DNA of 64,000 bases from Escherichia coli (GTDB lineage Bacteria > Pseudomonadota > Gammaproteobacteria > Enterobacterales > Enterobacteriaceae): NCBI RefSeq assembly GCF_044324785.1, contig NZ_CP172127.1. One strand, written 5' to 3'. Position numbers and translations under genes: made by a program. The notes beneath the pieces are model-generated. The model saw only the letters and a list, made by a program, of their open reading frames with translations. It ran no database searches and was not told the origin of the DNA. Position 1 is the first letter of the stretch. Every line of letters starts with the position of its first letter. Positions 16,038-40,045 of this stretch are shown piece after piece.

Positions 16038-16880
16038 TTATGAAGGTAACACTCCCGGATAGTGTTTCGCAATAATATCATTCAGCCTGTCAACCAGTTC
16101 TGGTTTCCTGAACCTGATGTGCGCGGAGCCTTTCTTAAAGTATCTGATGCTGAACATCTCATCTTCATAGCATTCTTTACCCTGAACAGACCGGATGTGA
16201 TCATCCAGACGAATAGTGATGTTTTCCCGGTTGTCGGGGATCGGTTTGCCGCTGAACAGATGTAGCATTCTTTCCAGGTCGACGAGTCGGTCAGTCTGTT
16301 GCCCGGTGATAAGATGAAACCCCCACCGGTCCCACCTCACCAGGTTGTTGACGATAATTTTACTGCCAAATTTGCAGGGGCAATTGGTTTTGTAATTCCA
16401 GCTCAGTCCCCTGAAGACGTTGATCACCCCTCGCTCAAACACCTCATCCTTATTCTGGTGTAGTTGTTCAAATGTGATCAGAATGTTCGCTTCACTGATT
16501 TCCGGAAAATTATCGTACTCCAGTGACCGGTACCATGTATCACGGGCCTGTGCATCCATTAAGGAAAGCATCCCTGAACGTTGCATCAGGTCACGCCAGA
16601 TTTCGCGATCGAGATTGCGTGTGATGGCTTTCATTGCGGTTTCCGGTTTCTCCATCAGCCAGCAGCCGCAGCGAAAATCCTGTTTCATGGCCCAGCCCGG
16701 GGCGGCTTTACCGCCAATACTTTCTGTCATTGCTGATATTTCAGCCAGTTGCCGGATAAGTGTGTCGATTTGCAGCAGTGTACTCTTTCGTACAGCCAGA
16801 ATGTGGCGGATACTGGTTGAGCAGATAACGTCCGTATGCCCGGTGACCACTTCCGGACGGGAGATTGTGATGTCTGACAT
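16038..16880 (-). CDS. Conserved island-end protein (DUF4942-like, methyltransferase-like)
   Basis: 280 aa; terminal gene of the yeeP…cbtA-type module; a truncated second copy of its 5' end is at 30782..30940. Confidence 0.5.
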   Translation of the reverse strand: MSDITISRPEVVTGHTDVICSTSIRHILAVRKSTLLQIDTLIRQLAEISAMTESIGGKAAPGWAMKQDFRCGCWLMEKPETAMKAITRNLDREIWRDLMQRSGMLSLMDAQARDTWYRSLEYDNFPEISEANILITFEQLHQNKDEVFERGVINVFRGLSWNYKTNCPCKFGSKIIVNNLVRWDRWGFHLITGQQTDRLVDLERMLHLFSGKPIPDNRENITIRLDDHIRSVQGKECYEDEMFSIRYFKKGSAHIRFRKPELVDRLNDIIAKHYPGVLPS

Positions 16881-16964
16881 TATCGGTTTCCCTTTTGGTT
16901 TATAAACGAAAACGCCAGCCCTGTTCAGGCTGGCGTCAGTGGAATGAAGTATGGTGAGTGAGGC

Positions 16965-17390
16965 TCACGCGCTCAGGTGAATGAGTTGCAGGTGACGCAG
17001 GGTGCGGACATCCTCCCTGGCCTGTTCGATACAGGGCAACAATGCTGCCGAATCCGTTTTATCCTCATCGTTGTCGAAAATAATTCCGGACCCGCAGTCG
17101 ATATTGTCCTGCAGCCACGCAATGAGGATATCCAGCGCTGTTTCAGTGGTTAATGGCATCACGCTCTGTATCACTGTATTGTCTTCCGGCAACTGATGAG
17201 AGCTGGCAGAAGTCGCCGGTGTTTCGGTAGCGTCACGTTCATCCACCACGCGGAGTGAATAACCGTTTTCAGCGACCTTGTTAATCAGTTCAGTGAGCTC
17301 AACACCATCAATGTCAACGACAATTCGCCCTATATTCAGTGCCTGTACGTTAACGCTGTCTGCTTCCAATGTCAGGGCCAGTTTCATCAT
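16965..17390 (-). CDS. Hypothetical protein downstream of cbtA (YeeW-like position)
   Basis: 141 aa, acidic; overlaps the cbtA stop by 4 bp; its 3' end is duplicated at 30616..30705. Confidence 0.55.
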   Translation of the reverse strand: MMKLALTLEADSVNVQALNIGRIVVDIDGVELTELINKVAENGYSLRVVDERDATETPATSASSHQLPEDNTVIQSVMPLTTETALDILIAWLQDNIDCGSGIIFDNDEDKTDSAALLPCIEQAREDVRTLRHLQLIHLSA

Positions 17391-17761: not shown

Positions 17762-17850
17762 AATGAAGATTTTCCTGATATGCAGAGATAAAAAATGGGA
17801 CAGTGGCGTGGTGAAAACACCAGGCCGGAGCAGAAGATTATTCTGATGAT

Positions 17851-18219: not shown

Positions 18220-18268
18220 GATAAAATCCTCACAGAAAATCGTTGAATGATAGTTTAACTTTGACAGG

Positions 18269-18913
18269 TCAGCCGGTGCGCAGACCGGCTTCGGTGAAGG
18301 TGTATTCGTTGATGAGAAGGGCCTCATCCACAGGGGCATCTGAGGTCAGCCTGTTGTGCTCGTTTTCCAGTTGACGGTACAGCCATAAGGCCAGGTCGCG
18401 CAGGGCTTCGCTGACAGCGGCTTCCGCATCTGTTGTCATAGTCTGACCAGTCGGACTGTTCCGGGTAACAGTGATATCCATGCTGTACGGATGGCAGTAG
18501 CGTCCCCGGCGGTGGATTTCAGCCTGCAGTTGCCAGAAGTTACGCTTCTGCACCGCCTGCAGGGCATCCGCGATACGATGGAGTTCATGCTCCTGTGGGG
18601 CATACTTCCGGATTATCCGGGCTGTCGCCGGCTGCCAGTGCCAGCGTCCTTCAAAACAGGCTCCGTCCCCCTGGCTGCAGCATCCGCTGAACCAGATGCA
18701 CGGCTCTTCCATAAACCTGCCGTTGCTGAGCCGGAAAACGCGCTGGCGGAGGTCAATTCCGAAAATGTCACAGACCGCCCTGAAGTCCTCATACACGTTT
18801 TCATACCAGTTGCTGTCAGCATGATGCTGACGGTACCCGTCGCGGGCTTTTCCCCGTACCGGGCAGGAAAGTTCATCCAGCGTATACACTGTGATGGTGA
18901 TAATGCTGCTCAT
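18269..18913 (-). CDS. Hypothetical protein (214 aa) between the DUF987 gene and the antitoxin
   Basis: Long ORF in operon orientation; Cys/Trp-rich segment CIWFSGCCSQGDGACFEGRWHW; no family recognised. Confidence 0.5.
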   Translation of the reverse strand: MSSIITITVYTLDELSCPVRGKARDGYRQHHADSNWYENVYEDFRAVCDIFGIDLRQRVFRLSNGRFMEEPCIWFSGCCSQGDGACFEGRWHWQPATARIIRKYAPQEHELHRIADALQAVQKRNFWQLQAEIHRRGRYCHPYSMDITVTRNSPTGQTMTTDAEAAVSEALRDLALWLYRQLENEHNRLTSDAPVDEALLINEYTFTEAGLRTG

Positions 18914-18931
18914 CAGAATCCCCTTTCTGAT

Positions 18932-19153
18932 TCAGTTCAGGGTGACGCTCATCAGCCGGACATACGGGCCAAAACTGTCCTTACGGCGTTCAGCAAACAC
19001 GGCCAGCACACCGGGAATATCCTGTACTTCACGACCGGTATACGTCTCAGCACTGCCGTGCCAGCGGTACTTACCGGTGCAGAACGGAAATAGACGGGAT
19101 GCAGGATGCTGTTGGTGAATACGCATGGCTTCACCACGGGTGATAATTTTCAT
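18932..19153 (-). CDS. Small YeeT-like protein (DUF987)
   Basis: 73 aa; conserved position between the RadC-like gene and the toxin-antitoxin pair. Confidence 0.65.
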   Translation of the reverse strand: MKIITRGEAMRIHQQHPASRLFPFCTGKYRWHGSAETYTGREVQDIPGVLAVFAERRKDSFGPYVRLMSVTLN

Positions 19154-19215
19154 AATGGGATACCTCTGAAGACAGAAGATAAAAGTGAAAACAGGTGTGA
19201 TGTGGTTGTGACGGG

Positions 19216-19692
19216 TTAAAGCAGACCATGTTCGGCAAAGGAGAAAACCTGGCTGCCACCGACTATCAGATGGTCCGGCACCCGGATATCCACCAGGCCC
19301 AGTGCCTGTACCAGACGTTCCGTGATAAGGCGGTCTGCCTTGCTGGGTGTGACTTCACCGGACGGGTGATTGTGCGCCAGCACCACGGCAGCGGCATTGT
19401 GGTACAGGGCGCGTTTAATCACTTCCCGGGGATGGACTTCCGTGCGGTTGATGGTGCCGGTGAAGAGGGTTTCACCGGCAATCAGCTGATTCTGGTTGTT
19501 CAGATACAGCACCCGGAATTCTTCACGCTCCAGTCCCGCCATGTTCAGAATCAGCCATTCCCGTGCCGCATGCGTGGAGGTGAAGGCCACGCCGGGTTCA
19601 TGAAGATGGCGGTCCAGGGCTTTCAGGGCCCGCTGAATGAGGCTGCGCTCTCTGGTTGTCATTTCTCCGGGCAGAAAGGAAATCTGTTGCAT
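19216..19692 (-). CDS. RadC-like JAB-domain protein (YeeS/YfjY family)
   Basis: 158 aa; JAMM motif region …VVLAHNHPSGEVTPSKAD…. Confidence 0.85.
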   Translation of the reverse strand: MQQISFLPGEMTTRERSLIQRALKALDRHLHEPGVAFTSTHAAREWLILNMAGLEREEFRVLYLNNQNQLIAGETLFTGTINRTEVHPREVIKRALYHNAAAVVLAHNHPSGEVTPSKADRLITERLVQALGLVDIRVPDHLIVGGSQVFSFAEHGLL

Positions 19693-19707
19693 TGTTCCGG
19701 CCCCCTT

Positions 19708-20193
19708 TCAGTCAATGATGCGCATAATGGCGCTGCATTCCGGATGCTGCAGGGCGTAATCCCGCAGACGGTAATAATGAACCGTCATGGCATAACACTC
19801 CGTACGGCAGGCGTGATGACTGTACGTCATCAGACAGGCAGCAATGCCGGCGGCTTCCGGGCTCATTTCAGCGCGGTTACCGTTCATGGCATTGAACAGT
19901 ACCCATGTTTCGTCATCATCATCATCCGGTTCGGGGGCCATAAATGCCCCGCCGTTGTTCAGGGTGTACAGATTCCAGATACCACCGCAGTAGTCTTCGC
20001 ACAGACGGTCCATCCAGCCGAAGACACGGGGCTCCAGGGTCACCCACTGTGGAATGAGGCCAAAATGCTGCGGCCAGAAGCTGATGCGCTGTTCATCAGG
20101 GACGGGAGTGGCAACCAGTTGAGACTGGTTATTCCCTGATGCAGTAGTTACGGAAACAGAAGGTGTGGTGGAGCTATGCGAAAAGGTTGTCAT
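19708..20193 (-). CDS. Antirestriction protein, KlcA/ArdB family
   Basis: 161 aa; acidic stretch PEPDDDDDETW and characteristic position upstream of the RadC-like gene. Confidence 0.7.
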   Translation of the reverse strand: MTTFSHSSTTPSVSVTTASGNNQSQLVATPVPDEQRISFWPQHFGLIPQWVTLEPRVFGWMDRLCEDYCGGIWNLYTLNNGGAFMAPEPDDDDDETWVLFNAMNGNRAEMSPEAAGIAACLMTYSHHACRTECYAMTVHYYRLRDYALQHPECSAIMRIID

Positions 20194-20284
20194 GAGATGA
20201 TTCCTTATAAAAAGTAAATGAATGGAAGAATGCCTGGGGACTGGTACAGACGTGAGTCAGGGCTGCACTTTCAGGGAAACAGCA

Positions 20285-21103
20285 TCAGCGCATGCTCTCC
20301 AGCAGCGTTTCTGCCATCACCCACAATGCGCGGTTGAGTTTTATATCGGTATCAATGCTGTGAATGGCCCGGGTATGGATACGTTTTCCTTTTGCACTGC
20401 GACCGGAAATCCCGCCTTTCAGCATATTCTCCTGGATGGTCTGATAAGCACTCCACAGGTCCTTACCGTAATCCTCCCGGCGTCGTGGTGTCAGAATGTC
20501 GGCGGTGGTGACGGGCTGATGTTCGTCACCATAACGGTAAGTCAGTGCCGCCTGTGCCAGCGCCTGGCGTGCCGGTGGCGGCAGGACCAGCGACTGCATG
20601 GCATCACGCTTCTCCTCTATCCGGTCAAACACGCCCACCACCTCGTAAGCCCCTTCAATGACTCTGTCCACCACATTTCCCCGGTGCGGAACACGCACTT
20701 CCCCCAGAGACTGACCGCAGACGCATCCGTTCTGGCAGACGAACCTGAAGTAACCCGGCAGCATCTGGTAGCTGGAGGTACCGTCATGAGAGTTGAGCAG
20801 AATAATTTCAGGGACATGTTGTCCGTTTATCTCCCCGTCACGGCGCAGACGCAGCATGTGTTTGGTATACCCCCGGCGGCCCGGGTCACGTACGCGGGTC
20901 TGGCAGGCGAAGAATGGCTGAAAGCCTTCCCGCTGCAGGCTTTCCAGCACGGTGATGGTGGGGATGTATGTATAGTTCCGGCTCCGGGAGGTGTGTTTAT
21001 CTTCCCCGAAAATCCCGGGCACATGGTGCATCAGCTCTTCACGGGTCAGCGGACGGTCACGGCGTATCTGGTTCGCATAACCAAAACGACTGGCTAATCG
21101 CAT
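20285..21103 (-). CDS. DUF932-family protein (YfjQ/YafZ-like)
   Basis: 272 aa; immediately downstream of the GTPase gene, as in CP4-type elements. Confidence 0.7.
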   Translation of the reverse strand: MRLASRFGYANQIRRDRPLTREELMHHVPGIFGEDKHTSRSRNYTYIPTITVLESLQREGFQPFFACQTRVRDPGRRGYTKHMLRLRRDGEINGQHVPEIILLNSHDGTSSYQMLPGYFRFVCQNGCVCGQSLGEVRVPHRGNVVDRVIEGAYEVVGVFDRIEEKRDAMQSLVLPPPARQALAQAALTYRYGDEHQPVTTADILTPRRREDYGKDLWSAYQTIQENMLKGGISGRSAKGKRIHTRAIHSIDTDIKLNRALWVMAETLLESMR

Positions 21104-21288
21104 ACTTTGCTCCTTATCAGTGGTTAAGACTGAATGACGTAATCAATGAAAAAGCCGCGTCTCACGGAGAAGACGCGGCCTGATGGATGAAATGAATGAG
21201 GGTTTACCGAAGCCCTTCAGCATTGTGGTGACGCAACCGGAAATGCGTTTCCTGGTTATCGCCGGGGCCGGTCAAAAAGCGGGGACAT

Positions 21289-22173
21289 TCAGAACAGGCG
21301 ATCCCACAGTGTGATCAGCAGGCGGATAATGCGATCACGGGCTTTGCGCAGAAGCTGCAGCATCCAGGCCGGAAAGCTGAACCGGGCAATGGCAGCGTCA
21401 AAACTCTGGCCGATGGCGTCACCAAAAGCCTGCTGTGCGTGTTGCTGATCCTGCGCAGTGCGCTTTTCATTCCGGATATGCGAATAAACCGCGCTGGTTG
21501 CCTGTGGTGGCAGGGCGTGGATCATCAGAGACACAAATGCCGGAAGATTCCAGCCGGCAGGAGCGGCAACGGGGAGTACCGGAAATGATGAAGGGAACAG
21601 GGTTGCCACCCGGGCTGTCACCGTCGCCAGCGAGAGTTCCTGGTGACGGGACGGGCATTTTTCTGTGTCGTTCCATTCTTCAGCAGGAAATACGCGATCG
21701 GCATGGCTGAGAACAAACAGAAAACGCGAGGGATCTGCACCTTCATTCAGTAAAAACTGATGCATGGCGATGTCGGCAGCATACGCACGTTCATCAGCCC
21801 GCAGGATCCAGATAATCAGATCCAGTTCGGGCAGTAACTGACTGTAAAGTGCCCGGTATTCCTGATCATGCTGTGGTGTTTCGCCAGTGCCGGGCAGATC
21901 GACCAGCGTCATTCTTCGTTCACCGGGCTGAAAGGTAAGACGATGAGCCTGACGGGTGCAGCCGTTCAGCGGATGCGTGGCGCAGACACGGGACTGAAAA
22001 ATGGCATTGCACAGGCTGCTTTTTCCGGCACCGGATTTACCCATAATGCCAATCACGGGCTCGTAATGAATAACACTGTGGAGATGTTCAAGGATTTTCT
22101 GGCGAATTTCTTCAGGAAGAAACGTCAGATATGATTTCACTTGTGCGGAGAGGGAAGAATGGCTGAATGACAT
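21289..22173 (-). CDS. GTPase-family protein (YeeP/YfjP/YkfA-like, P-loop)
   Basis: 294 aa; Walker A GIMGKSGAGKSSL and G-motifs DLPG…; first gene of the CP4-like module. Confidence 0.8.
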   Translation of the reverse strand: MSFSHSSLSAQVKSYLTFLPEEIRQKILEHLHSVIHYEPVIGIMGKSGAGKSSLCNAIFQSRVCATHPLNGCTRQAHRLTFQPGERRMTLVDLPGTGETPQHDQEYRALYSQLLPELDLIIWILRADERAYAADIAMHQFLLNEGADPSRFLFVLSHADRVFPAEEWNDTEKCPSRHQELSLATVTARVATLFPSSFPVLPVAAPAGWNLPAFVSLMIHALPPQATSAVYSHIRNEKRTAQDQQHAQQAFGDAIGQSFDAAIARFSFPAWMLQLLRKARDRIIRLLITLWDRLF

Positions 22174-22275
22174 ACCGGTATCCTGTTGATTTCACTGAAC
22201 CGGATCACACTAATCCGGTTTATCATTCAGGTAATATGGGCGTGAAAAAATCTGGAGTGACAAAGTTCGGGAGGA

Positions 22276-23229
22276 GTGATGGCATCACTGTCGATTAATA
22301 CGCTACGCCGAATGAGCATTTGTAAAAGTCAGGCCTGGAAAGATACCCAGCGAATACTGAAGCGTAGTGGACTTGTGTACAGAGGGGAACGGTCAGAATC
22401 GTTTGATCCTGAGAAACATTTTAATCGTTATACGGTGCGTTATCTGTACCTGCTTAACATAATTGCGCTTAAGATAAGGTCGGTTAGTAAATTTTCCTGT
22501 TGGATCGAGGTGGGACAATGCCATCGTATGACTGGTAAACATTTATCTCTTAATGCCCCGCCTTTTATGCTGATTCCGCGTAGTATCCGGAGAAAAGTGG
22601 ATGGATTCAGACAGTCAAAAGGTGAAGCAACCCCAAAATCGGCTCAACCGTTCACGGGCAGTTTGTATGAGGTTTTGAGAAAGGAGAGCGATTCAGCTAA
22701 GCTGGACGCATGGATTGCTGAACTGCCTCTGAACTTGCAGGAGGAGGGAAAGGAAATCTCAGTCATGGGATTTAGTCCACGGGCTGTGGCCCGACCTGTT
22801 CTTCGGTCAGCATCCCCGACGTTTGAACTGTTTTATCAGGAGTATCAATCCCTAAGATTAAAATCTGTTTTTAAATTTGAACCAAGATTTGAACAACTTT
22901 TAACAAGACTGAGCTTTAGAAAACAATCAATTCTCAGAAAACAACAATACAGGGTTAAATCGCAATTACTGGAGAGACTGGGGAATGTGTTGTTTTTCAC
23001 GTCGCTTTATAACCAGGGATGTTTAGAGGAGTTTATAAATGCACTTGTGGAAAAGGAGGACATTTATCTGAAAATGTCCCCTGGGGAGGAAAAGGTGAAA
23101 GCACACCAGAAAATGGTTAACTACATTGAAGCGTTCTGCAACAAAATGACGGAAAAATACCTGATGCCCGCAGCAAGCAGACACTACAAAAAGAAGAAAA
23201 TCGCCAGGAGCGAAAGTGGTGAAAGTTAA
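22276..23229 (+). CDS. Hypothetical protein (317 aa, basic), cargo gene of unknown function
   Basis: Long ORF divergent from the GTPase gene; no recognisable motifs; start codon uncertain. Confidence 0.5.
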   Translation: MMASLSINTLRRMSICKSQAWKDTQRILKRSGLVYRGERSESFDPEKHFNRYTVRYLYLLNIIALKIRSVSKFSCWIEVGQCHRMTGKHLSLNAPPFMLIPRSIRRKVDGFRQSKGEATPKSAQPFTGSLYEVLRKESDSAKLDAWIAELPLNLQEEGKEISVMGFSPRAVARPVLRSASPTFELFYQEYQSLRLKSVFKFEPRFEQLLTRLSFRKQSILRKQQYRVKSQLLERLGNVLFFTSLYNQGCLEEFINALVEKEDIYLKMSPGEEKVKAHQKMVNYIEAFCNKMTEKYLMPAASRHYKKKKIARSESGES

Positions 23230-24101
23230 TCCAGTCTACCGTACAGAATCAGTTGTTCCAGAATAGCCTGCTGTGTTGTTTTCCGCTCTCTGGTCAGTCT
23301 GTCCAGAGCGCTTTTTGCGGATGGCGATATCTTTACGTTGATTTGTACCCGTTTATCTTTTTTTCCATCGATAAACTGTTTTCTGAATGCATTGTGCATC
23401 TTGTCGAAAAATCTTTCTTTTGCAGCGAATCCTAGGTGAAATTCTTTTGGCGTCAGTAAACAGGGTGTGTCTGTGGGGAATAACATTTTTAGTAAAACTA
23501 CAATGGCAATATATCTTTCGTTATCATTTACAGGATTAAACCAGGAAAGATATGTGGGTGAGATACGTGCATCAATATATTCCCATGCCCATTTCAGTTG
23601 TTCGGTATTCTTTTTAAGCCATTTGGCTTCGTTTCTCTTTTCGAGTCCCAGCCAGTTTTGATGCATTATTGAGATAATCCGATCTGCTTCCCCATAAAGG
23701 ATTAACGCATTAATCCATTTCCCTATAACATTCAGTCGTGTTTCATGACTTGAAGGAATAATTGTCATGGGGTTATCCTTCATAACGATCACCCCCTTCA
23801 AGGCAGAGTTGAACTCAGATTCATTATTAAGTTTAAGTTTTTCGGGAACTGTATGAGACATAATTAACCAGAACCAGAATGCTGCAATTTCATTTTTTCT
23901 GATCCATTCAGGTATGTGATTATCTGCCAGATTATTATCATTCAATAAATGCTCAGTTGTTTTATTTTTCCAGTCATATCTATTCACGTTATAACCGCCT
24001 TTATATTGTTTCATCTGATTACGCCTCAATCGTTTTCTTTTCTGGTGATTTTCACCATCACATGTCAGTTGTATATGCAAGGGGATCAATAAAAATATCA
24101 C
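23226..24101 (-). CDS. Hypothetical protein with a C-terminal ribbon-helix-helix-like segment (start probably the internal Met at about 24014)
   Basis: 291-aa ORF; C-terminus KRVQINVKISPSAKSALDRLTRERKTTQQAILEQLILYG resembles CopG/RHH DNA-binding motifs; convergent with and overlapping the previous gene by 4 bp. Confidence 0.5.
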   Translation of the reverse strand: MIFLLIPLHIQLTCDGENHQKRKRLRRNQMKQYKGGYNVNRYDWKNKTTEHLLNDNNLADNHIPEWIRKNEIAAFWFWLIMSHTVPEKLKLNNESEFNSALKGVIVMKDNPMTIIPSSHETRLNVIGKWINALILYGEADRIISIMHQNWLGLEKRNEAKWLKKNTEQLKWAWEYIDARISPTYLSWFNPVNDNERYIAIVVLLKMLFPTDTPCLLTPKEFHLGFAAKERFFDKMHNAFRKQFIDGKKDKRVQINVKISPSAKSALDRLTRERKTTQQAILEQLILYGRLD

Positions 24102-25711
24102 CCTGCAAGCACTTCAAAGCTGATTATGGGGATATTCTAGAACTATTCACAAAACTATTCCAGACATATCAAGAACTATTTCTTGACCTATTCATAATAA
24201 AATAAAACATGCTATCAACTACGGCTCATATTCTCCTTGGGGGTGTCGTTGTACTGTTCGACTGTTCTTGTGGTCAGATTAACAATCTGAAGAGTAAAAG
24301 CGACAGTAATCTGTCTGTTATAGTGGCGATAAAAACACTGAATGCGCATCCTGTATGTGAAATCCTGTCATGTAGAGCAGTAAGCAATGACAGACATGCA
24401 TGTTATATGTGAAGGGGGCCGGGAGACGACATAATCAGTATGGCTGTCATTCTGGTTGTAAAACGCGATCACTTTCCGGGGGTAAAAGATGATATGGAGG
24501 TTGACAAACGGTTTGCTTCGGATTGTCTTTTCTGGGGCCTGAAATACGAGGGCAGAAAAATAATTCCAGAGTAAATCTGCTCTGTTTTTAGGACAGAAAA
24601 CTCCATGCTGGCTGTAAAAGTGAAAAATTAACACCCAGTATGTATGGAAGTCTGAAGATGTTGAGAATGTCGGTATGATACTATATACACATATTTTACT
24701 AAGTATTTTTACTAAGCATTTCAGTAAGTGTTATACACGTATTTTCTACTAAGTGTTTTACCAGACATACACGTGTTTTCATAAACAGCCCTATAAGTGT
24801 TTTCATTAAGCATTGCTGTACACATTGCTTTGTCTGAAACACATCCAGTTTAGTAAATCTTTACGTTAGCTAAAATCAGTTTAAAGCTGCTGTAAAACCT
24901 TTCTGTTTAAGCAATCAATCTGCTATTCGATTTTACTGATGTTGCGTTTAACCTTTTCTGAGATTTCGAGTTTCGACGTTAGCATGAGAAAAGTATCTTT
25001 ACGCTAAATCAACCCGAACTTTCCTGAAGTAATCTGACGTTTTTTTCGATGTGCTTACGACGATTCTGTTAAACGACTTTCTGGATGTTTTGATAACAAT
25101 CAGATTGAGGCATTAACGATTCCTGACGTTTTCTTTTCCGTGTAAGGTCATTCTTTTTGTCATGAGGTTTCTTCTTGCATTGCGAAAGTGTGATGAACGG
25201 TTTTGGTGTTTTTGATTCAGATAAGGTTTACGTTATCGATGGTTAATCGTTTTTATGGTGCGTAGTGAAACGTAACTTTTTCAGGATGAGAAAATCGATT
25301 CTGATGTTGGTGATTTTTGTTCTTGTGGCGGGGTTTATCTGTAAACAGGTTTTAAACGTGTCATTCACATCCGTGATTGAGTTGTGTGATTAAGCTGTAG
25401 GTTTTGGGGTTGTTGTTGATTTGCATTACCAGGAAGCGTTCTGGTTGCGTTTCTGGTGTTTTGTTCGAATGTTCTGTGGATCCTTTTCCCTTCTGACTTT
25501 TCTCGTTGTCCATGTCGTTTTTAAATCCATTCGCTGTTCTTGAGTGTTTTTACCCTGCGTGTAGAATTATCTTTTCGTTCCGGGATGGTTTGTTCCGTTT
25601 CAATCACTCTTAATCAGAGAGTTGTAGCATTGCTCAATGCCGGATGCCGTAAAGTTTTACCGCGGTGATTAATGATGTGAAGTCAATCCAAATCAACGGA
25701 GATCTCTCATC
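24102..25711. other. About 1.6-kb non-coding, AT-rich region with short direct repeats upstream of Gp2-like genes
   Basis: No ORF above 90 aa on either strand; repeated TACTAAG motifs within 24690..24770 and two copies of GTGTTTTCAT. Confidence 0.5.
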
Positions 25712-26443
25712 ATGAATCAACCAATACACAATGCTTACTGGTTATCCCGTTTTGAAAGTATTCTCAACAGTGCCCTGGCGCAGCACCGTGCCGTCTCGTT
25801 AATCCGGGTGGATTTACGTTTCCCTGAGTATATGCCTGCCACCATCATGGATACCGATTTAGATTCAGCGGTGATTTCTCGTTTTTTTGCATCCCTGAAA
25901 GCAAAAATTCAGGCTTACCAGCGACATAAACGACGTGCCAACAAGCGTGTGCGTGCAACCACTCTGCGTTATTTCTGGTGTCGGGAGTTTGGCAAGGAAA
26001 AAGGCAGGAAACATTATCACGTGATATTACTGCTCAACAAAGATACCTGGTGCTCGCCAGGGGATTTCACCGTTCCTTCTTCGCTGGCGACACTGATCAA
26101 GCTGGCATGGTGTAGTGCTCTGCATCTTGAGCCCTGGCAGGGTAATGGACTGGTTCATTTTTCCAGGCGGACGCCTTTCCGTAAACCGACATCATCTGAT
26201 GCTCGCCCTTCTTCCGATGATACGCCTTTGTCGGGTGGATGTTCTGAAACCAGGAAGGCTTCAGACAAAAAGCCGGGTGAAGCCGCTGTTCTCTGGATCA
26301 AGCGTGGTGATGTGGAAGCGCTGCAGAAAGCCCGGAACAGAGCCAGTTATCTCGTGAAATATGAGACGAAGCAGCATGACGGTTCCGGGCAACGTAATTA
26401 TGGTTGCAGTCGTGGGCCGGGGCGTCTGCTGGATGGCAGGTGA
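25712..26443 (+). CDS. Inovirus Gp2-like / YagK-YfjJ family protein (HUH-type)
   Basis: 243 aa; HYHVILLL motif and family-typical N-terminus (AYWLSRFESILNSAL…). Confidence 0.7.
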   Translation: MNQPIHNAYWLSRFESILNSALAQHRAVSLIRVDLRFPEYMPATIMDTDLDSAVISRFFASLKAKIQAYQRHKRRANKRVRATTLRYFWCREFGKEKGRKHYHVILLLNKDTWCSPGDFTVPSSLATLIKLAWCSALHLEPWQGNGLVHFSRRTPFRKPTSSDARPSSDDTPLSGGCSETRKASDKKPGEAAVLWIKRGDVEALQKARNRASYLVKYETKQHDGSGQRNYGCSRGPGRLLDGR

Positions 26444-26769
26444 GCCCTGTAAAACGACATCCGGTGCCTGAGCTTATGCTACAGGACGTTGGCTGACGCC
26501 CTTAGCTCGTTTTCTGAAAAAGTCGTCCTGAAGTCATGCAACGGTATTTTTCTCTGCTTTCGCTCCTGGAAACACTCCGTCGGTAAAACCTTACTGTCCT
26601 GCTTAATGATGTGAACCGAAGTCAACGGAGAGCATTCATTCTGAACCTGCATCCGGTGTTCTGTCCCTTGTCGGTTACCTGATCTTCCCGTTCTGCCGCG
26701 GTTTTTCACTTATTCCATCAACCCCATACGCAAGCCATAACACGTCAGCGCATCCACGGGCAGGACGCG

Positions 26770-27372
26770 TTGTGGGCTGCGTATAACGGAACATATCTTA
26801 TGAATGCTATCCCTTATTTCGACTATAGCATGGCGCCCTTCTGGCCATCTTATCAGAACAAAATCATCGGCGTTCTCAACCGTGTGTTGCGCGAGCAGTC
26901 CTGCTCCCGAATACGGCGGATCCTGCTTCGTCTGCCGGGGGAACATGGCAACATCTTCAGCGACAGAAAAACCTGGTTCGGTATGGCCTTTATCGAAACC
27001 GTCAGTGCGCTGATGAATGCAACCCCCGGACGCGACCTCTGCTGGCTCCTGACACGTCATCCTGAAAAACCGGAATACCACGTGGTGCTGTGCGTCAGAC
27101 AGGAATATTTCGACGGCCCTGAGCTGGACCGGTTGATTCTGGATGCCTGGAGCAACGTACTGGGCTTCGCGTCACCGGGTGAAGCAGCACCGTACCAGAA
27201 ACAGATAACCCGGGATGTGGTGCTGGACAGTTGTTCACCGGACTGCGAAGAGAGACTCAAAGAGCTGATATGGGCGTTCAGTGATTTCGCCCGCGATCGT
27301 CGTGGTGTGCGCGATCCGGAAGCCCGTTACCTCGCCGGTAATCCCTGGTATCCCGTAGCAGGCCAGCTCTGA
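26770..27372 (+). CDS. Second Gp2-like/YagK-family paralogue (putative)
   Basis: 200 aa; EYHVVLCV motif in comparable position. Confidence 0.5.
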   Translation: MWAAYNGTYLMNAIPYFDYSMAPFWPSYQNKIIGVLNRVLREQSCSRIRRILLRLPGEHGNIFSDRKTWFGMAFIETVSALMNATPGRDLCWLLTRHPEKPEYHVVLCVRQEYFDGPELDRLILDAWSNVLGFASPGEAAPYQKQITRDVVLDSCSPDCEERLKELIWAFSDFARDRRGVRDPEARYLAGNPWYPVAGQL

Positions 27373-27440
27373 AAGCTCAGCTCAGCAGATTCACCCGCAT
27401 TTGCCCAACATTCATAAATCTCACAGAGGACATTCTGACC

Positions 27441-27677
27441 ATGTTGACCTCAATGACAGGTCACGACAGCGTATTGCTGCGTGCCGACGATCCCCTGATC
27501 GACATGAACTACATCACCAGCTTCACTGGTATGACCGACAAATGGTTTTACAAGCTGATCAGTGAAGGCCATTTCCCTAAACCCATCAAACTGGGGCGCA
27601 GCAGCCGCTGGTACAAAAGTGAAGTGGAGCAGTGGATGCAGCAACGAATCGAGGCATCACGAGGGGCAGCAGCATGA
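27441..27677 (+). CDS. alpA: AlpA-family phage/island regulatory protein (excisionase-like DNA-binding)
   Basis: 78 aa; …NYITSFTGMTDKWFYKLISEGHFPKPIKLGRSSRWYKSEVEQWM… typical AlpA helix-turn-helix. Confidence 0.8.
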   Translation: MLTSMTGHDSVLLRADDPLIDMNYITSFTGMTDKWFYKLISEGHFPKPIKLGRSSRWYKSEVEQWMQQRIEASRGAAA

Positions 27678-27877
27678 AACGTGTTGTAATGCCGGTACGC
27701 TGGCAATGTGCAAAATACCAGCGTTGGTATTGTGGAAATCAGCCCTGTCCCTGGTGCTGGCGACCTGCTGCCCCCGTCTGTCATTCCTCGTTCTTCGCTG
27801 TAACAGGCATCGTACCGGTCTCGGCGTGCTTTCCTGCGTACCGACACCGGTTCAGCAACATTCAAGGGGATCAAATC

Positions 27878-28426
27878 GTGCAAATAACCGAAACCGTACT
27901 TTCAGAGCCGGTGGAAATCCGGCGTTTTATTCAGCAGGCGGTGGATCACTGGCCGCGTCTGCTGGCCGTCCACTTCACACTCCATTCGGCAGAAGGAAAC
28001 ATCAACGGACAACAGATTCATGCATTCTGTACTTCCTTTTACCGACAGGTGCACGAGCGTATTACTGAACGTAATCACACGGCCAGTCCAGCACCACCGG
28101 TGGTATTACGCTGGTTGCGGGAACAACATGGAGGAGCAACAATGCGATGCCTGTTGCTGCTCAGCCAGACGAGCATTTGCCATCCACGGGTCAGTGCCAC
28201 GGTTGATGAAGAATGTTCGCAACGGGTGGATTTATTGCAACAGACATGGCGGGTGATAAGTGCTGACGGACAATGCCGGGTGGAAAGGTGTTTTCAGGCT
28301 GCCCGGGGTGATACATCCGGCCAGTATATTGCGTTAAAAACAGTTGCATTGTCTCTGGGGTTACCGGTTGTGACCGGTATTACCCATCGCCCGGTACAGC
28401 GCTGTACATTGATTACAGCTCAGTGA
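27878..28426 (+). CDS. Hypothetical protein (182 aa from GTG start with AGGGGA ribosome-binding site)
   Basis: The track ORF 27632..28426 overlaps alpA; a GTG at 27878 preceded by aagggga is a more plausible start. Confidence 0.4.
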   Translation: MQITETVLSEPVEIRRFIQQAVDHWPRLLAVHFTLHSAEGNINGQQIHAFCTSFYRQVHERITERNHTASPAPPVVLRWLREQHGGATMRCLLLLSQTSICHPRVSATVDEECSQRVDLLQQTWRVISADGQCRVERCFQAARGDTSGQYIALKTVALSLGLPVVTGITHRPVQRCTLITAQ

Positions 28427-28443
28427 ACAGCGCTGTTGTGCAG

Positions 28444-28746
28444 TCAACGAGGTTTTCTGTCTTTTCGTCGGTCATTCAGCATCATTAAACGGGTCTCTGC
28501 CTCTTTCTGTTCCTGTGGTGTCACTTCCCCGCACGGCTGACCGTTCAGGTTGTAACGGGCGCCACCTGCTATTAACGCACGGTAATAGCGCGGAGACTGC
28601 ACATAAGACGCCACTGCTGCATGTAATGTACCAGCGCCAAACGCCAGTTCTCGGATGGCGATATCCTGTATCAGGTCGTCAGGTATCCCCACTTTAAGTG
28701 GTTTTGTTTTTTTCCCGGTTGAATGACTCAGGCCAGAGTTCCACAA
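28444..28746 (-). CDS. Hypothetical small protein (100 aa)
   Basis: ORF only; possibly one gene with the upstream ORF 28761..28955 split by a frameshift. Confidence 0.3.
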   Translation of the reverse strand: MWNSGLSHSTGKKTKPLKVGIPDDLIQDIAIRELAFGAGTLHAAVASYVQSPRYYRALIAGGARYNLNGQPCGEVTPQEQKEAETRLMMLNDRRKDRKPR

Positions 28747-29295
28747 GACGAATAATGCGCTTACGGTTTTTGCTCTGGCGTTTTGTCATGTCGCCACGGT
28801 GTTTTATCAGCAGGTTTCTGTTTATCGTTCAACTGTGGTATCTGGTCACCGGCCTTCATTTTGTATGCTGTGTCCGTTTTATTCTGCAGCGGCGTTGCCG
28901 GTGATTTACTGAAAATACCCTGCGGTTTACGGTTAATGGTCAGAGTTACCATCAATTTTGTTACCTCGCGCTGTCAATGGAAGTAGTACCTCATCCGATA
29001 TCTGAAAATGTTTTCCGGTGGATGTTACAGCGAATTTCATGTAAGACATGTTGTTGTCGGTATTGTTCAGTACTGTGCGTTGTGAGCGTATTCGTTATCA
29101 GACAGAGGGGCAGGGAACAAATGGCGTGTGAAGCAATCAGCAGGTAATATTAATGGCAGGACCAGCAGGTTCTTTAAACAAACGAACATGCTGTAATTGA
29201 TATTTTGCTTATTGTATTTTCTTTTTAGTTATTAAATTAATTTATTTACGAAAAATTTTCTGCAGATACAGGATGGGAATTCAGTGGATTTGCCC

Positions 29296-30201
29296 CTATA
29301 TTTCCAGACACCTGTTATCACTTAACCCATTACTGGCCTGCTGCCGCAGATATTCCCGTGGCGAGCGATAACCCAGTGCACTATGCGGATGCCATTCGTT
29401 ATAATGCTCGAACGCCTCTGCAAGGTTCTTTGCTGCCGTTAACCCGTCTGGTTTAGGCATGATACTGATGTAGTCACGCTTTATCGTTTTCACGAAGCTC
29501 TCTGCTATGCCGTTACTCTCCGGACTCCGCACCGCCGTGTTCTTCGGTTCAAGCCCCAACATCCGGGCAAACTGCCGTGTTTCATTAGCCCGGTAGCATG
29601 AACCATTATCCGTCAGCCACTCTACTGGAGACGCCGGAAGCTCGTTGCCGAAGCGGCGTTCCACCGCTCCCAGCATGACGTCCTGTACTGTTTCACTGTT
29701 GAAGCCGCCCGTAGTGACCGCCCAGTGCAGTGCCTCACGGTCACAGCAGTCCAGCGCGAACGTGACTCGCAGTTTTTCTCCGTTATCACAGCGGAACTCG
29801 AACCCGTCAGAGCACCATCGTTGATTGCTTTCTTTCACGGCCACTTTGCCAGTATGTGCCCGTTTCGATGGCGGTACAGCGGTTTTTCGCTCAAGCAACA
29901 GCGCATTCTGGCGCATGATCCGGTAAACACGTTTGGCATTGATCGCAGGCATACCATCAAGTTCGGCCTGTCTGCGAAGCAGCGCCCATACCCGACGATA
30001 ACCATACGTGGGCAGCTCTCCGATAACATGGTGTATACGGAGAAGCACATCCGTATCATCTGAGTGACGGCTGCGGCGACCATCTTTCCAGTCATCGGTT
30101 CGTCTGAGAATTACGTGCAACTGCGCACGCGACACCCGGAGACAACGGCTGACTAAGCTTACTCCCCATCCCCGGGCAATAAGGGCGCGTGCGCTATCCA
30201 C
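29296..30201 (-). CDS. insD: IS2 transposase InsD (orfB)
   Basis: 301 aa with integrase-core motifs; recognised as IS2 InsD. Confidence 0.9.
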
Positions 30202-30524
30202 TTTTTTGCCCGTCCATATTCAACGGCTTCTTTGAGGAGTTCATTTTCCATCGTTTTCTTGCCGAGCAGGCGCTGGAGTTCTTTAATCTGCTTCATGGCG
30301 GCAGCAAGTTCAGAGGCAGGAACAACCTGTTCTCCGGCGGCGACAGCAGTAAGACTTCCTTCCTGGTATTGCTTACGCCAGAGAAATAACTGGCTGGCTG
30401 CTACACCATGTTGCCGGGCAACGAGGGAGACCGTCATCCCCGGTTCAAAGCTCTGCTGAACAATTGCGATCTTTTCCTGTGTGGTACGCCGTCTGCGTTT
30501 CTCCGGTCCTAAGACATCAATCAT
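30159..30524 (-). CDS. insC: IS2 InsC (orfA)
   Basis: 121 aa from [40 protein letters not shown]…; overlaps insD in the usual -1 frameshift arrangement. Confidence 0.9.
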
Positions 30525-30615
30525 CTGCTCTCCAATGACTAGTCTAAAAACTAGTATTAAGACTATCACTTATTTAAGTGATATTGGTTGTCTGGAGATT
30601 CAGGGGGCCAGTCTA

Positions 30616-30940
30616 TTCGGCAGCACTGTTGCCCTGTATCGAACAGGCCAGAGAGGATGTCCGTACCCTGCGTCATCTGCAGCTTCTGCACCAGAACCGG
30701 TGAATATCACTCACCACGCTTCATTACCCTGACGCCAGCCTGAATACGGCTGGCGTTTTCGTTTATAAACCAAAAGGAAAAATGATGATGTCAGATACCA
30801 CACTCTCCCGCCCGGAGGTGGTCAGCGGGCATACGGACGTTATCTATTCCACCTCAGTCTGCCACATTCTGGCTGTACGAAAGAGTACACTGTTGCCAAT
30901 CGACACAATTATCCGGCATCAAGTGAGCGATATCAGTTAA
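30616..30940 (+). pseudogene. Inverted partial duplicate of the module end: 3' fragment of the yeeW-like gene plus truncated 5' part of the DUF4942-like gene
   Basis: 30616..30780 is near-identical to the reverse complement of about 16880..17050; 30782 ATG gives MMMSDTTLSRPEVVSGHTDVIYSTSVCHILAVRKSTLL… then stops at 30938. Confidence 0.7.
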
Positions 30941-31340
30941 CCGATATAGATGGGGAAGATGCTTTTATCCGGATTGGATCTATCGCGATGGTGCGAGTAC
31001 CACTTGATGCAATGGAGCCTGTCGAGGCAGATGACGAGTAACAGAGCTCGGTATCTCAATCAGGACCTGATTGTCCTGGTTCGATGCCGAAAACCAGTGA
31101 TTTTTCGTGTTGGTATCTGTGTTGGTATAGGATGGTGTTGTTTATTATTAACAATTTTAAATCATGAGGTTAAATCGCATGTTTGAGTCAGGCCTTCGCA
31201 TCAATATCAAAACAATCAATAAATAAGTCCTTTAACCTAGCCACGACCAATCATTGATCAACCACGAAATCCTCTCCGAAACACAGTCCCAATCCCTAAA
31301 CCCTACGCTCAACATCGAAACCCGCTTATCACCATCCCCC

Positions 31341-32210
31341 TCATCCCCTGAACACCTCCCGCCGGTGCCACGCCACAAACCCCTCCTGGGGATAGCATTC
31401 TTTCCCCATCGGCAAGGTAATCGGCTTACCATCAAAATCCCAGAACAACCTGCCAACGATGCCTCCGCCGTTCACCGCCGGCGAAACCTGGATGCGCATA
31501 TCCTCATCCAGACCAATGGATCCTTTATCAAAAGCCTTATGGTGAATCGCGCAGAGCGCCAGGCCGTTAGGGATTTCGCAGGGGCCGCCGTGCTGCTTCC
31601 ACTTGATATGGGCCGCTTCCAGGGCGACGGAGGTATTATCATGGCGCATATTGAAGCCGCAGATAGCGCACTCATAGTTATAGGCGCGCAGCACCTGCTG
31701 GCGAAAATGCGGGTCGCGCTCTTTGCGGATCTGCAGCAGATCAAACCCCATCTCTTCAGCCAGTTCTTCCTGAATACTCTCCGGAAAGTGCGCCTCGAGG
31801 ATCTGATGGGCGAGGGTATTGATCAGCTTCTTATTTCTGTTAAGTAACGCAAAATGCTGCTCATCAAAGCCGCCGGCGACGTGGCAGAGCTCCAGCTCTT
31901 TGCCGGGCGGCTGTCGGCTGCCCTGGGTTGAGCACTGTTCGCTGTTGTGTAGCTCCCAGAAGCCGTCGCCTTTCAGGCGCCAGAAGGGCATGTCCGGCCG
32001 GTACTGGCGGCGCTGCGGGCCAAAGCGTTCCAGCAGGCTATGCAGCTCATCACGTATCTCCGAGGCGTAGTCGAACATCCGCGCATGGCCGCGCTGGTAT
32101 TGCGAGAGGACGTACAGCAGCAATAGTGGTTTATGCGGCGCACGCTGTTCGCCTTTGCGCCAGATGGTGATGTTCTCGATCGCGTGTTGCAGGGTCGTGC
32201 TGGAGGGCAT
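31341..32210 (-). CDS. HNH endonuclease-domain protein, putative modification-dependent (type IV-like) restriction nuclease
   Basis: HNH core YECAICGFNMRHDNTSVALEAAHIKWKQHGGPCEIPNGLALCAIHHKAFDKG in the C-terminal half; N-terminal about 180 aa unassigned. Start taken at the second Met (MPSSTT…). Confidence 0.6.
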   Translation of the reverse strand: MPSSTTLQHAIENITIWRKGEQRAPHKPLLLLYVLSQYQRGHARMFDYASEIRDELHSLLERFGPQRRQYRPDMPFWRLKGDGFWELHNSEQCSTQGSRQPPGKELELCHVAGGFDEQHFALLNRNKKLINTLAHQILEAHFPESIQEELAEEMGFDLLQIRKERDPHFRQQVLRAYNYECAICGFNMRHDNTSVALEAAHIKWKQHGGPCEIPNGLALCAIHHKAFDKGSIGLDEDMRIQVSPAVNGGGIVGRLFWDFDGKPITLPMGKECYPQEGFVAWHRREVFRG

Positions 32211-32389
32211 AGCGTTACATTGGCAGCTAAATAAATGCGATGATGCTCGCAAAATCCTTGCCGATCAACCTACCAGATGCGGCGATTCTACGTGGATCGC
32301 GATTTAATTATCACTGCCAGTTATTTGTTCGAAAAGACCATAGCTTTCTATTTATACTCAAGCTTCGCGCCATCAGATAGCTATGTCTT

Positions 32390-33028
32390 ATGAAAAAACT
32401 ACCGGACCATTTATCCAGGGAATGCATCATCGCCGCCATTCGCGCTTACGATGCAGGCGTTGCGCATCAGTTTAAAAGCGCGCGTCTGTATGAGATCGAG
32501 TTTGAGGGGCGTCGGTATCCTTCAAAAGCCATCGTCGGGTTAGCGGCCACGCTTGCGACGGGAACGGAATTTACCCCGGCGGATTTCAGCGGGGGGATTA
32601 AATCAAAATGCGTGCGTCTGTTACTGGAGCAAGGATTTACGATCGCGTCGCAGGGCGCTGGCGATGACGAGGTTGCGCTTTTCCCCGATGAGGGGCAGAC
32701 GACCATGGAGTACGTGGAAGGGGCGGCGTTGCAGGTGGTGGTCAATCGCTATGAGCGCGACCGTCAGGCTCGTCAGGCGGCGCTTCGCCTGCATGGCTGC
32801 CAGTGTCAGGTATGCGGTCTGGATATGGCCAGCCGCTATGGCGATATCGGCCAGGGCTTTATCCATATCCACCATCTCATCCCGCTGGCCGGGATAAAGC
32901 AGGACTACCGCCTGAACCCTGAAACCGATCTGATCCCGGTATGTCCCAACTGCCATGCGATGCTGCACCGGCGAGATCCGCCGTTTACCCCCGAAGAGCT
33001 GAAGGCCCGGCTGCGCCCCACAGACTGA
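32390..33028 (+). CDS. McrA-like HNH endonuclease with a distinct N-terminal domain
   Basis: C-terminus CQCQVCGLDMASRYGDIGQGFIHIHHLIPLAGIKQDYRLNPETDLIPVCPNCHAMLHRRD parallels the E. coli McrA HNH motif (C.NCG…HHVIPLS…CPNCH..LH). Confidence 0.65.
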   Translation: MKKLPDHLSRECIIAAIRAYDAGVAHQFKSARLYEIEFEGRRYPSKAIVGLAATLATGTEFTPADFSGGIKSKCVRLLLEQGFTIASQGAGDDEVALFPDEGQTTMEYVEGAALQVVVNRYERDRQARQAALRLHGCQCQVCGLDMASRYGDIGQGFIHIHHLIPLAGIKQDYRLNPETDLIPVCPNCHAMLHRRDPPFTPEELKARLRPTD

Positions 33029-39819: not shown

Positions 39820-40045
39820 TTATGCCGGATGGCGGCATACATGCCTTATCCGGCCTACGTTTCTGAGGAGGCCTGCGGGATACCCCCCAGGCCCGGCAGG
39901 CGCAGCGCCGCCGGGCAGGACACTTCAAGCTCCATACCTGTGGTTGTGCCGGATGGCGGCATAAATGCCTTATCCGGCCTACGTTCCTGAGGAGGCCTGC
40001 GGGATCCCCTCCCAGGCCCGCGCAAGCGCAGCGCCGCCGGGCAGC
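39820..40045. repeat. Two tandem copies of a REP-type palindromic unit (about 95 bp each)
   Basis: …tgccggatggcggcata(c/a)atgccttatccggcctacg…gaggaggcctgcggga…caggcccg…gcgccgccgggcag appears twice (about 39823 and about 39948). Confidence 0.6.

What the first reader, a model, noticed from the sequence alone, without database searches (positions are those of the whole stretch)
29285..30940. IS2 abuts an inverted, truncated duplicate of the module's terminal genes
Directly beside IS2, the 30616..30940 segment repeats in inverted orientation the 3' end of the yeeW-like gene and the 5' end of the DUF4942-like gene from 16.0-17.4 kb, diverging after about 45 codons. IS2 lacks a clean 5-bp duplication. 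This looks like the scar of a second CP4-like element, or an IS2-mediated inversion or deletion, that fused another island's end to the present cargo.
Basis: seen in the sequence. Interest (0 to 1): 0.5.

Follow-up and report, generated by a model that had tools for sequence, protein, structure and literature searches.

The report
IS2 deletion scar in selC island
An intact IS2 insertion sequence sits against the cut-off tail of a second, oppositely oriented CP4-type island module, and comparison with other E. coli genomes shows this is an ordinary scar left by IS2 insertion followed by a ~35-kb deletion next to the IS.

Summary
IS2 occupies 29285-30615 (minus strand, 1331 bp). Its flanks are TTCAG and TTCGG, so there is no 5-bp duplication. 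From the first base after IS2, 30616-30918 is an inverted 86%-identical copy of 16750-17052.

It is not a duplicate of the window's own module. It is a paralogue, 99.7% identical to the intact module tail in E. coli ABU 83972. The "yeeW-like" piece is the last 88 nt of a DUF957 gene.

The break in DUF4942 after 44 codons was not made by IS2. It is an old internal deletion that fused DUF4942 to the C-terminus of an HTH regulator, and 1359-1760 of 5426 complete E. coli genomes share it.

Strain LH50-c has the same IS2|DUF957' junction but keeps 34,991 bp between the ProQ/FinO flank and IS2. Another 133 genomes have the undeleted breakpoint sequence, and none has a second IS2 there. The window therefore carries a deletion anchored on the IS2 right inverted repeat (IRR). 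It follows an earlier, unreconstructed loss of the second module's body.

No inversion isomer exists in the collection. Nine independent complete genomes share the right-hand junction, so it is not an assembly artefact.

This is ordinary island mosaicism of low interest.

The parts
29285..30615 (-). Intact IS2 (IS3 family), 1331 bp. orfA lies within 30159-30569 and orfB at 29296-30201, with the A6G -1 frameshift site near 30200. The right inverted repeat (IRR) is at 29285 and the left inverted repeat (IRL) at 30615.
   Evidence: Sequence and ORFs. PGAP annotates the identical copy in strain ES1 as an IS3 family transposase with programmed frameshift. Ends and length were checked against four other IS2 copies.
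29280..29284 (.). Left deletion breakpoint (TTCAG). The native sequence upstream of the ProQ/FinO pseudogene stops here against the IS2 IRR.
   Evidence: In LH50-c the same sequence continues as ...GAATTCAG|GGTGTCATCACGCC into a LacI-family gene. 133 genomes carry the uninterrupted sequence.
30616..30703 (+). 3' fragment of a DUF957 gene: 88 nt, giving 28 codons plus the stop read from 30617. It is truncated by IS2.
   Evidence: The translation [28 protein letters not shown] is identical to the C-terminus of the ABU 83972 DUF957 protein. PGAP pseudo-CDS in ES1.
30731..30767 (+). Terminator-like hairpin with a T tract between DUF957 and DUF4942. It is conserved in both copies of the repeat.
   Evidence: Scan result and alignment.
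30788..30918 (+). 5' fragment of a DUF4942 gene (first 44 codons). The mechanical ORF at 30782-30940 runs on into foreign sequence.
   Evidence: Alignment to the full-length DUF4942 at 16038-16880. That gene matches Pfam PF13708 at 4.6e-68. PGAP marks the fragment as missing its C-terminus.
30938..31041 (+). C-terminal ~34 codons of a helix-turn-helix regulator, fused to the DUF4942 stump by an old internal deletion.
   Evidence: 80% nt identity, and 33 of 43 aligned positions identical (stop codon included), to the C-terminus of the 265-aa HTH regulator of strain ZH063. There the gene order is DUF4942 (full) - CopG - RelE - HTH.
31042..31204 (+). Conserved non-coding tail of the CP4-type module. 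High similarity to other genomes always stops at ~31200-31204.
16750..17052 (-). Counterpart of the repeat in the window's own complete CP4-type module. It spans the DUF957 3' end (DUF957 at 16965-17162), the intergenic hairpin and the DUF4942 5' end (DUF4942 at 16038-16880).
31341..33028 (.). Cargo next to the scar: a phosphorothioated-DNA-binding restriction endonuclease (31341-32252, minus) and an HNH endonuclease (32390-33028, plus).
   Evidence: NCBIfam NF045808 at E = 2.1e-132, 440 bits against a cut-off of 180. PGAP names.

Best explanation
The segment is a layered rearrangement scar inside the island at tRNA-Sec (selC).

Step 0, old and shared. A CP4-type module of a lineage different from the window's main module lost about 2 kb between codon 44 of DUF4942 and the last ~34 codons of a downstream HTH regulator. 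This gave the DUF957 - DUF4942' - HTH' tail that many E. coli carry.

Step 1. A copy of that tail lay in the selC island, pointing towards selC and opposite to the main module. IS2 inserted into its DUF957 gene at ...GGATTCGG|CAGC, presumably duplicating TTCGG.

Step 2. The DNA on the IRR side of IS2 was lost: the 5' part of DUF957 and the rest of that module. This left TRAP-permease|IS2|DUF957', as seen in strain LH50-c. The mechanism of this step is not reconstructible.

Step 3. In the window's lineage a further 34,991 bp on the same side was removed. One endpoint is exactly the IS2 IRR terminus. The other is in the ProQ/FinO-LacI intergenic region. IS2 remained intact and has no target duplication.

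The most likely mechanism for step 3 is a transposase-mediated adjacent deletion (inferred). The remnant has no function of its own: all three gene pieces are pseudogenes.

Shown: the repeat, the paralogy, the shared old junction, the deletion relative to LH50-c and its polarity. Inferred: the order of steps 1 and 2, and transposase rather than homologous recombination as the agent.
For: Repeat: 303 nt at 86%, E = 5e-101, starting at the first base after IS2.

Paralogy: 99.7% over 590 bp to the intact CbtA-DUF5983-DUF957-DUF4942'-HTH' tail in ABU 83972.

Old junction: at least 80% of 30616-31250 is present in 1359 of 5426 genomes. The HTH' tail is present in 1760, usually once per genome, beside nanS/nanM/nanC. 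The undeleted layout DUF4942-CopG-RelE-HTH exists in ZH063.

Deletion:
- The IS2|DUF957' junction is identical in LH50-c, with a different left flank.
- The window's left flank continues uninterrupted in LH50-c.
- The missing block is record positions 876774-911764, i.e. 34,991 bp.

Polarity: 133 genomes have the uninterrupted breakpoint sequence, against 8 with IS2 there.

No second IS2: the reciprocal junction IS2|TTCAGGGTGTC is found in 0 of 5426 genomes.

Missing TSD is meaningful: three control IS2 copies have perfect 5-bp duplications.

Further erosion from the same anchor: A65EC keeps only 29 bp of the IS2 IRL between a truncated antirestriction gene and TTCGGCAGC.

Precedent: IS3-family IS150 adjacent deletions in the long-term evolution experiment lack TSDs and grow stepwise (PMC11708052).
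Against: - No genome in the collection preserves the primary insertion (DUF957 5' part - TTCGG|IS2), so step 1 is inferred.
- The agent of the 35-kb deletion cannot be read from the product. Recombination between two IS2 copies gives the same sequence, and an intermediate could simply be unsampled.
- LH50-c is a sister arrangement, not a demonstrated ancestor. Its main CP4 module is only 89-95% identical to the window's.
- GF60 joins DUF4198-downstream DNA to (T)TCGGCAGC with no IS2 remnant, which the simple model does not explain.
- The 4/5 match between TTCAG and TTCGG could be chance (about 1.6%) or something not understood.
Confidence: 0.72

Rival explanations
1. Homologous recombination between two directly oriented IS2 copies made the junction. 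One copy was at the ProQ/LacI intergenic site and one at DUF957'. Recombination deleted the 35 kb between them and left one hybrid IS2 without matching flanks.
For: The product is indistinguishable in sequence from an adjacent deletion. IS2 is abundant in these genomes, with up to ~40 places per genome. The region is dense in IS elements: IS1, IS2, IS66 and IS110.
Against: No genome among 5426 has IS2 at the ProQ/LacI site with the reciprocal right junction. 133 genomes have that site empty.
Confidence: 0.22
2. An inversion produced the arrangement. It was either IS2-mediated or due to recombination between the two 304-nt inverted repeats, and it flipped a formerly co-oriented module end. On this view 17053-30615 could be an invertible segment.
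For: The two copies are in inverted orientation, 13.5 kb apart. The AlpA/YfjJ-like head genes at 25.7-28.4 kb have the same + orientation as the remnant.
Against: - The predicted inversion junction (main DUF957 3' end | IS2 IRL) occurs in 0 of 5426 genomes. All nine full-length hits are the known junction at 92.7%.
- The remnant is uniformly 99.7% identical to another lineage, with no mosaic of the two copies.
- The main module keeps its own complete DUF957-DUF4942 end.
- 86% identity over 304 nt is a poor substrate for recombination.
Confidence: 0.03
3. The fragment is an in-situ duplication of the window's own module end, as the finding's title implies, or an assembly artefact at a repeat.
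For: Gene content and order of the two copies are the same.
Against: Identity is 86% to the local copy against 99.7% to ABU 83972. The DUF4942'/HTH' junction pre-exists in more than 1300 genomes. Eight independently assembled complete genomes from human, chicken and frog sources share both junctions, and a ninth shares the right one.
Confidence: 0.02

Closest known systems
IS2 (IS3 family, copy-out/paste-in insertion sequence of E. coli)
   Same: It is 1331 bp long with the characteristic terminal inverted repeats. orfA and orfB overlap at an A6G -1 frameshift site. Other copies in related genomes make 5-bp target duplications.
   Different: This copy has no target duplication. Its IRR flank is a deletion endpoint and its IRL flank is a truncated gene.
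IS-mediated adjacent deletions, e.g. IS150 (IS3 family) in the E. coli long-term evolution experiment (PMC11708052)
   Same: The IS is retained intact, there is no TSD, and one endpoint lies exactly at an IS terminus. The size is tens of kb. There is evidence of stepwise extension from the same anchor: LH50-c, then the window type, then A65EC.
   Different: It is seen here only as natural variation among sequenced isolates, not observed in real time. Transposase involvement is inferred.
CP4-44 / CP4-6 / CP4-57-type island modules of E. coli (GTPase ... antirestriction - RadC - DUF987 - YeeU/CbeA - CbtA - YeeW/DUF5983 - DUF957 - DUF4942)
   Same: The main module at 16.0-22.2 kb has this gene order. 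The remnant matches the last two genes of such a module and is nearly identical to an intact one in ABU 83972.
   Different: Only 88 nt of DUF957 and 131 nt of DUF4942 remain. The orientation is opposite to the resident module and to the selC integrase.
Right end of the island next to nanS-nanM-nanC (strains STN0717-20, CAU16175, Z142-3). From memory this is the leuX island region; that assignment was not tested.
   Same: The DUF957 - DUF4942' - HTH' junction and ~160-bp tail are identical, followed by a phosphorothioate-dependent REase/HNH pair in the same relative position.
   Different: The REase/HNH genes there are only 67-73% identical and mostly degraded, whereas here they are full length. 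The chromosomal site is selC rather than the nan locus.

Membership tests
IS2 (IS3 family) | Length ~1.33 kb with imperfect terminal inverted repeats TGGATTTGCCCC... / ...GGGGCCAGTCTA | tested here: met
   The copy at 29285-30615 is 1331 bp. The same ends and length are found in the copies in L002, L003 and L006. The canonical sequence is recalled from memory. PGAP names related copies 'IS3-like element IS2 family transposase'.
IS2 (IS3 family) | Two overlapping ORFs joined by a programmed -1 frameshift at A6G | tested here: met
   ORFs lie at 30159-30569 and 29296-30201 on the minus strand. AAAAAAG is present near 30200. PGAP annotates 'programmed frameshift' on the identical copy.
IS2 (IS3 family) | 5-bp direct target duplication flanking a simple insertion | tested here: not met
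   The flanks are TTCAG and TTCGG. Controls are clean: GCTAC, GTATG and ATTCC. This speaks against a simple insertion, not against identity as IS2.
IS-mediated adjacent deletion | One flank is shared with an undeleted relative, and the other flank is collinear with DNA lying further out on the same side in that relative | tested here: met
   LH50-c: the right junction is identical, the left flank is found 34,991 bp upstream, and it is continuous there.
IS-mediated adjacent deletion | No pre-existing second IS copy at the distal breakpoint | tested here: met
   0 of 5426 genomes have the reciprocal IS2 junction and 133 have the site empty. Absence of evidence only.
IS-mediated adjacent deletion | Dependence on transposase activity | not testable with these tools
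   This requires genetics: the deletion frequency with and without OrfAB, or in a recA-deficient background.
CP4-type island module | Conserved gene order ending CbtA - DUF5983 - DUF957 - DUF4942 | tested here: met
   Main module: PGAP annotation of the identical ES1 sequence, plus Pfam DUF5983_N and DUF4942. Remnant: 99.7% identity to the tail of an intact module.
CP4-type island module | Own integrase next to a tRNA attachment site | tested here: inconclusive
   There is one tRNA-Sec (57010-57104) with an adjacent tyrosine recombinase, oriented as the main module. No integrase or att site can be assigned to the remnant.

The most novel reading that the evidence does not exclude
The IS2(IRL)|DUF957' junction may be a long-lived anchor from which the selC island is pruned stepwise in nature. 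It has four different left partners: TRAP permease in LH50-c, ProQ/FinO in the window type, an antirestriction gene in A65EC, and DUF4198 in GF60. In addition, the conserved end of the CP4-type tail at ~31204 may be a dedicated exchange point. Different defence cargo sits there in different strains: a phosphorothioate-dependent REase/HNH pair; an integrase plus type III R-M; an SNF2/methylase/helicase system.
Probability: 0.4. Interest if true: 0.3.

Novelty: already known. Interest (0 to 1): 0.12.

Why it matters
It matters little beyond annotation.

- It explains why this IS2 lacks a target duplication.
- It explains why three short pseudogenes (DUF957', DUF4942', HTH') sit between IS2 and a restriction gene.
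- It shows that the selC island of this lineage (strains ES1, ST38 and others) is a deletion derivative of a larger island that carried ~35 kb of sugar-transport, TonB-receptor and TRAP-transporter genes.

It is a tidy natural example of stepwise deletion anchored on an IS3-family element. The IS2|DUF957' junction could serve as a lineage marker.

Tried and rejected
- **Second IS2 at the distal breakpoint.** A chimeric query (IS2 IRL + TTCAG + LacI-side sequence) found 0 genomes. IS2 x IS2 recombination is therefore not supported, but not excluded.
- **The primary insertion.** A query of the DUF957 5' part + TTCGG + IS2 IRR found no exact hit. Five two-piece hits are independent IS2 insertions nearby.
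- **The inversion isomer.** 0 genomes.
- **H11/H12 (strains 2-1 and Ch1).** These looked as if they shared the left junction. They do not: an IS1 and a transketolase fragment lie between ProQ and an IS2 that has its own clean TSD, GTATG.
- **NCBIfam on the three fragments and the two full-length genes.** No hits, because these DUF families are Pfam-only. Pfam was used instead.
- **The step that removed the body of the second module.** I tried to reconstruct it from the TRAP-side flank. The TRAP 3' flank carries three different IS2-family junctions within 11 bp in LH50-c, GF60 and ECCNB12-2. No unambiguous ancestral state was found.
- **Literature search for DUF4942 + CbtA.** Nothing relevant.

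Full report
**Setting.** The window is an E. coli chromosome segment essentially identical (99.9%) to strain ES1, NZ_CP133856. tRNA-Sec (selC) lies at 57010-57104 on the minus strand with a tyrosine recombinase next to it. setC lies at 14058-15242. The ~42 kb between them is therefore a selC island.

At the end of the island far from selC sits a complete CP4-type module on the minus strand, in the same orientation as the integrase. PGAP annotates it as GTPase, DUF932, antirestriction, JAB/RadC, DUF987, YeeU antitoxin, CbtA toxin, DUF5983 (partial), DUF957 and DUF4942. Pfam confirms DUF4942 for the 280-aa protein (4.6e-68). It finds a DUF5983 N-terminal domain in the 141-aa ORF at 16965-17390. 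That ORF is an in-frame fusion of the first ~55 codons of DUF5983 to a complete DUF957.

**Observation check.** IS2 occupies 29285-30615 on the minus strand. It is 1331 bp long with both ORFs and the A6G frameshift site intact. Its flanks are TTCAG on the left and TTCGG on the right.

Three IS2 copies fetched from other genomes have perfect 5-bp duplications: GCTAC in STN0717-20, GTATG in strain 2-1 and ATTCC in GF60. The missing duplication here is therefore informative.

From the first base outside IS2, 30616-30918 is the reverse complement of 17052-16750. The match is 303 nt at 86% identity with E = 5e-101, and it is the only long inverted repeat in the window. It covers three things:
- the last 88 nt of DUF957;
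- a conserved terminator-like hairpin (30731-30757);
- the first 131 nt (44 codons) of DUF4942.

**Not a local duplicate.** Strain ABU 83972 has an intact, co-linear tail: CbtA - DUF5983 - DUF957 - DUF4942' - HTH'. That tail is 99.7% identical to window 30615-31204. The remnant is only 86% identical to the window's own module. The remnant therefore comes from a different lineage of CP4-type module. It is a paralogue, not a copy made in place.

**The break after 44 codons is old.** At least 80% of 30616-31250 is present in 1359 of 5426 complete E. coli genomes. The HTH' piece plus its tail (30925-31204) is present in 1760 genomes. It usually occurs once per genome, at the end of an island next to nanS-nanM-nanC.

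Strain ZH063 has a more distant module that shows the undeleted layout: DUF4942 (full length) - CopG - RelE/ParE - a 265-aa HTH regulator. The C-terminus of that regulator matches window 30938-31040 at 80% nt identity, with 33 of 43 aligned positions identical, stop codon included. The DUF4942'/HTH' junction is therefore an internal deletion of roughly 2 kb that happened long before IS2 arrived.

**What IS2 did.** The junction IS2(IRL)|TTCGGCAGC occurs in nine complete genomes. Eight of them also have the window's left junction: ES1, ST38, I2, YZMc17-1, EC17CM12, ET479, H8 and EC0585. They come from human, chicken and frog sources, which rules out an assembly artefact.

The ninth, LH50-c, has a TRAP-transporter permease gene on the left instead, again with no duplication (CAGAC against TTCGG). 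LH50-c otherwise has the same architecture as the window:
- the CP4 module on the minus strand;
- inovirus-Gp2/YfjJ-like genes, an HTH gene and a ProQ/FinO pseudogene;
- about 35 kb of cargo: LacI, PTS, transketolase, YadA-like, ugpB, IS66, TonB receptor, DUF4198, DsbD and TRAP genes;
- then IS2 and the DUF957' tail.

The window's left flank runs on without interruption in LH50-c, as ...GAATTCAG|GGTGTCATCACGCC. IS2 plus 7.9 kb to its right are 99.76% identical between the two. The difference is a clean 34,991-bp gap, with one end exactly at the IS2 IRR terminus.

The uninterrupted breakpoint sequence is present in 133 genomes, so the window state is the derived one. No genome has a second IS2 at that site; the reciprocal junction was found 0 times.

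An IS retained intact, no TSD and one endpoint at the IS terminus form the signature of an IS-adjacent deletion. IS150, another IS3-family member, shows exactly this behaviour in the long-term evolution experiment, including stepwise growth of the deletion (PMC11708052). Recombination between two IS2 copies would give the same product. It remains a rival at about 0.2.

**Earlier and later steps.** LH50-c also lacks a duplication, so an earlier event had already removed the 5' part of DUF957 and the body of the second module. No genome retains the primary insertion. The TRAP flank carries three different IS2-family junctions within 11 bp in three strains. I could not reconstruct this earlier step.

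Later erosion is visible in A65EC. Its main module encodes the same proteins as ES1. However, a truncated antirestriction gene is joined to the last 29 bp of the IS2 IRL, followed by TTCGGCAGC. This is a further ~10.6-kb deletion from a window-type ancestor.

GF60 joins DNA downstream of DUF4198 to (T)TCGGCAGC with no IS2 remnant. It also has a separate IS2 with a clean TSD 390 bp upstream. That junction is not explained by the simple model.

**Inversion.** The predicted inversion junction is absent from all 5426 genomes. The remnant shows no mosaic of the two repeat copies. I found no support for inversion.

**Function.** None is expected. All three gene pieces are pseudogenes, as PGAP also annotates them. 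The neighbouring cargo is intact. It consists of a phosphorothioated-DNA-binding restriction endonuclease (NF045808, 2.1e-132) and an HNH endonuclease.

**Verdict.** The feature is an ordinary product of island mosaicism and IS activity, already present and annotated in several RefSeq genomes. Interest is low.

Noticed in passing
window 31200-31204 and rightwards (31341-33028): High similarity of the CP4-type tail to other genomes always stops at ~31200-31204. Beyond that point different strains carry different cargo. ABU 83972 has an integrase pseudogene plus type III R-M. STN0717-20 has an SNF2/DNA-methylase/DEAD-helicase block. Elsewhere there are PT-dependent REase/HNH pairs only 67-73% identical to the window's. 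It looks like a cargo-exchange hot spot.
   Followed up: partly
window 16965-17390 (minus): The main module's 'yeeW-like' 141-aa ORF is an in-frame fusion of the DUF5983 N-terminal domain (~55 codons) to a complete DUF957. The intact DUF5983 in ABU 83972 is 162 aa.
   Followed up: yes
window ~29121/29122: The window, ES1, ST38 and I2 lack 154 bp upstream of the ProQ/FinO pseudogene. Most other genomes have that stretch, and some lack only 124 bp. A short GGGAACAAA(T/C)G repeat lies at the edge.
   Followed up: partly
L002 15001-16331 and hits H13-H25; one search hits H148-H152: IS2 has hit the DUF5983/DUF957 end of CP4-type modules independently several times. One insertion, with a clean GCTAC duplication in STN0717-20, lies in DUF5983 490 bp upstream of the window's site; a dozen listed genomes (hits H13-H25) show the same match pattern, but only STN0717-20 was opened. 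At least five other genomes have insertions nearby.
   Followed up: partly
L006 9700-9725 (GF60) and L009 ~8975-9001 (A65EC): Two further derivatives of the same junction exist. A65EC retains a 29-bp IS2 IRL stub. GF60 has no IS2 remnant and a 2-bp (TC) overlap at the join, which is unexplained.
   Followed up: partly
L003 ~11990-12000, L007 ~14790, L008 ~10797: The 3' flank of the TRAP large-permease gene carries three different IS2-family junctions within 11 bp in three strains. These are an intact IS2, an IS2 variant, and a truncated IS2-like remnant that looks roughly 80% identical to IS2 by eye.
   Followed up: partly
window 1-1173: Four tandem copies of a ~291-nt unit, 60-86% identical to the first copy, run off the left edge of the window. 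They lie inside a gene annotated as hypothetical, next to type III secretion translocon and chaperone genes.
   Followed up: no
window 39820-39897 and 39944-40021: Two 78-nt direct repeats, 88% identical, with GCCGGATG...CCTTATCCGGCCTAC motifs. These are typical of REP/BIME elements (the family assignment is from memory).
   Followed up: no
window ~15.7-15.9 kb: A short rhuM pseudogene fragment lies between setC and the DUF4942 end of the main module. This marks the distal border of the selC island.
   Followed up: no
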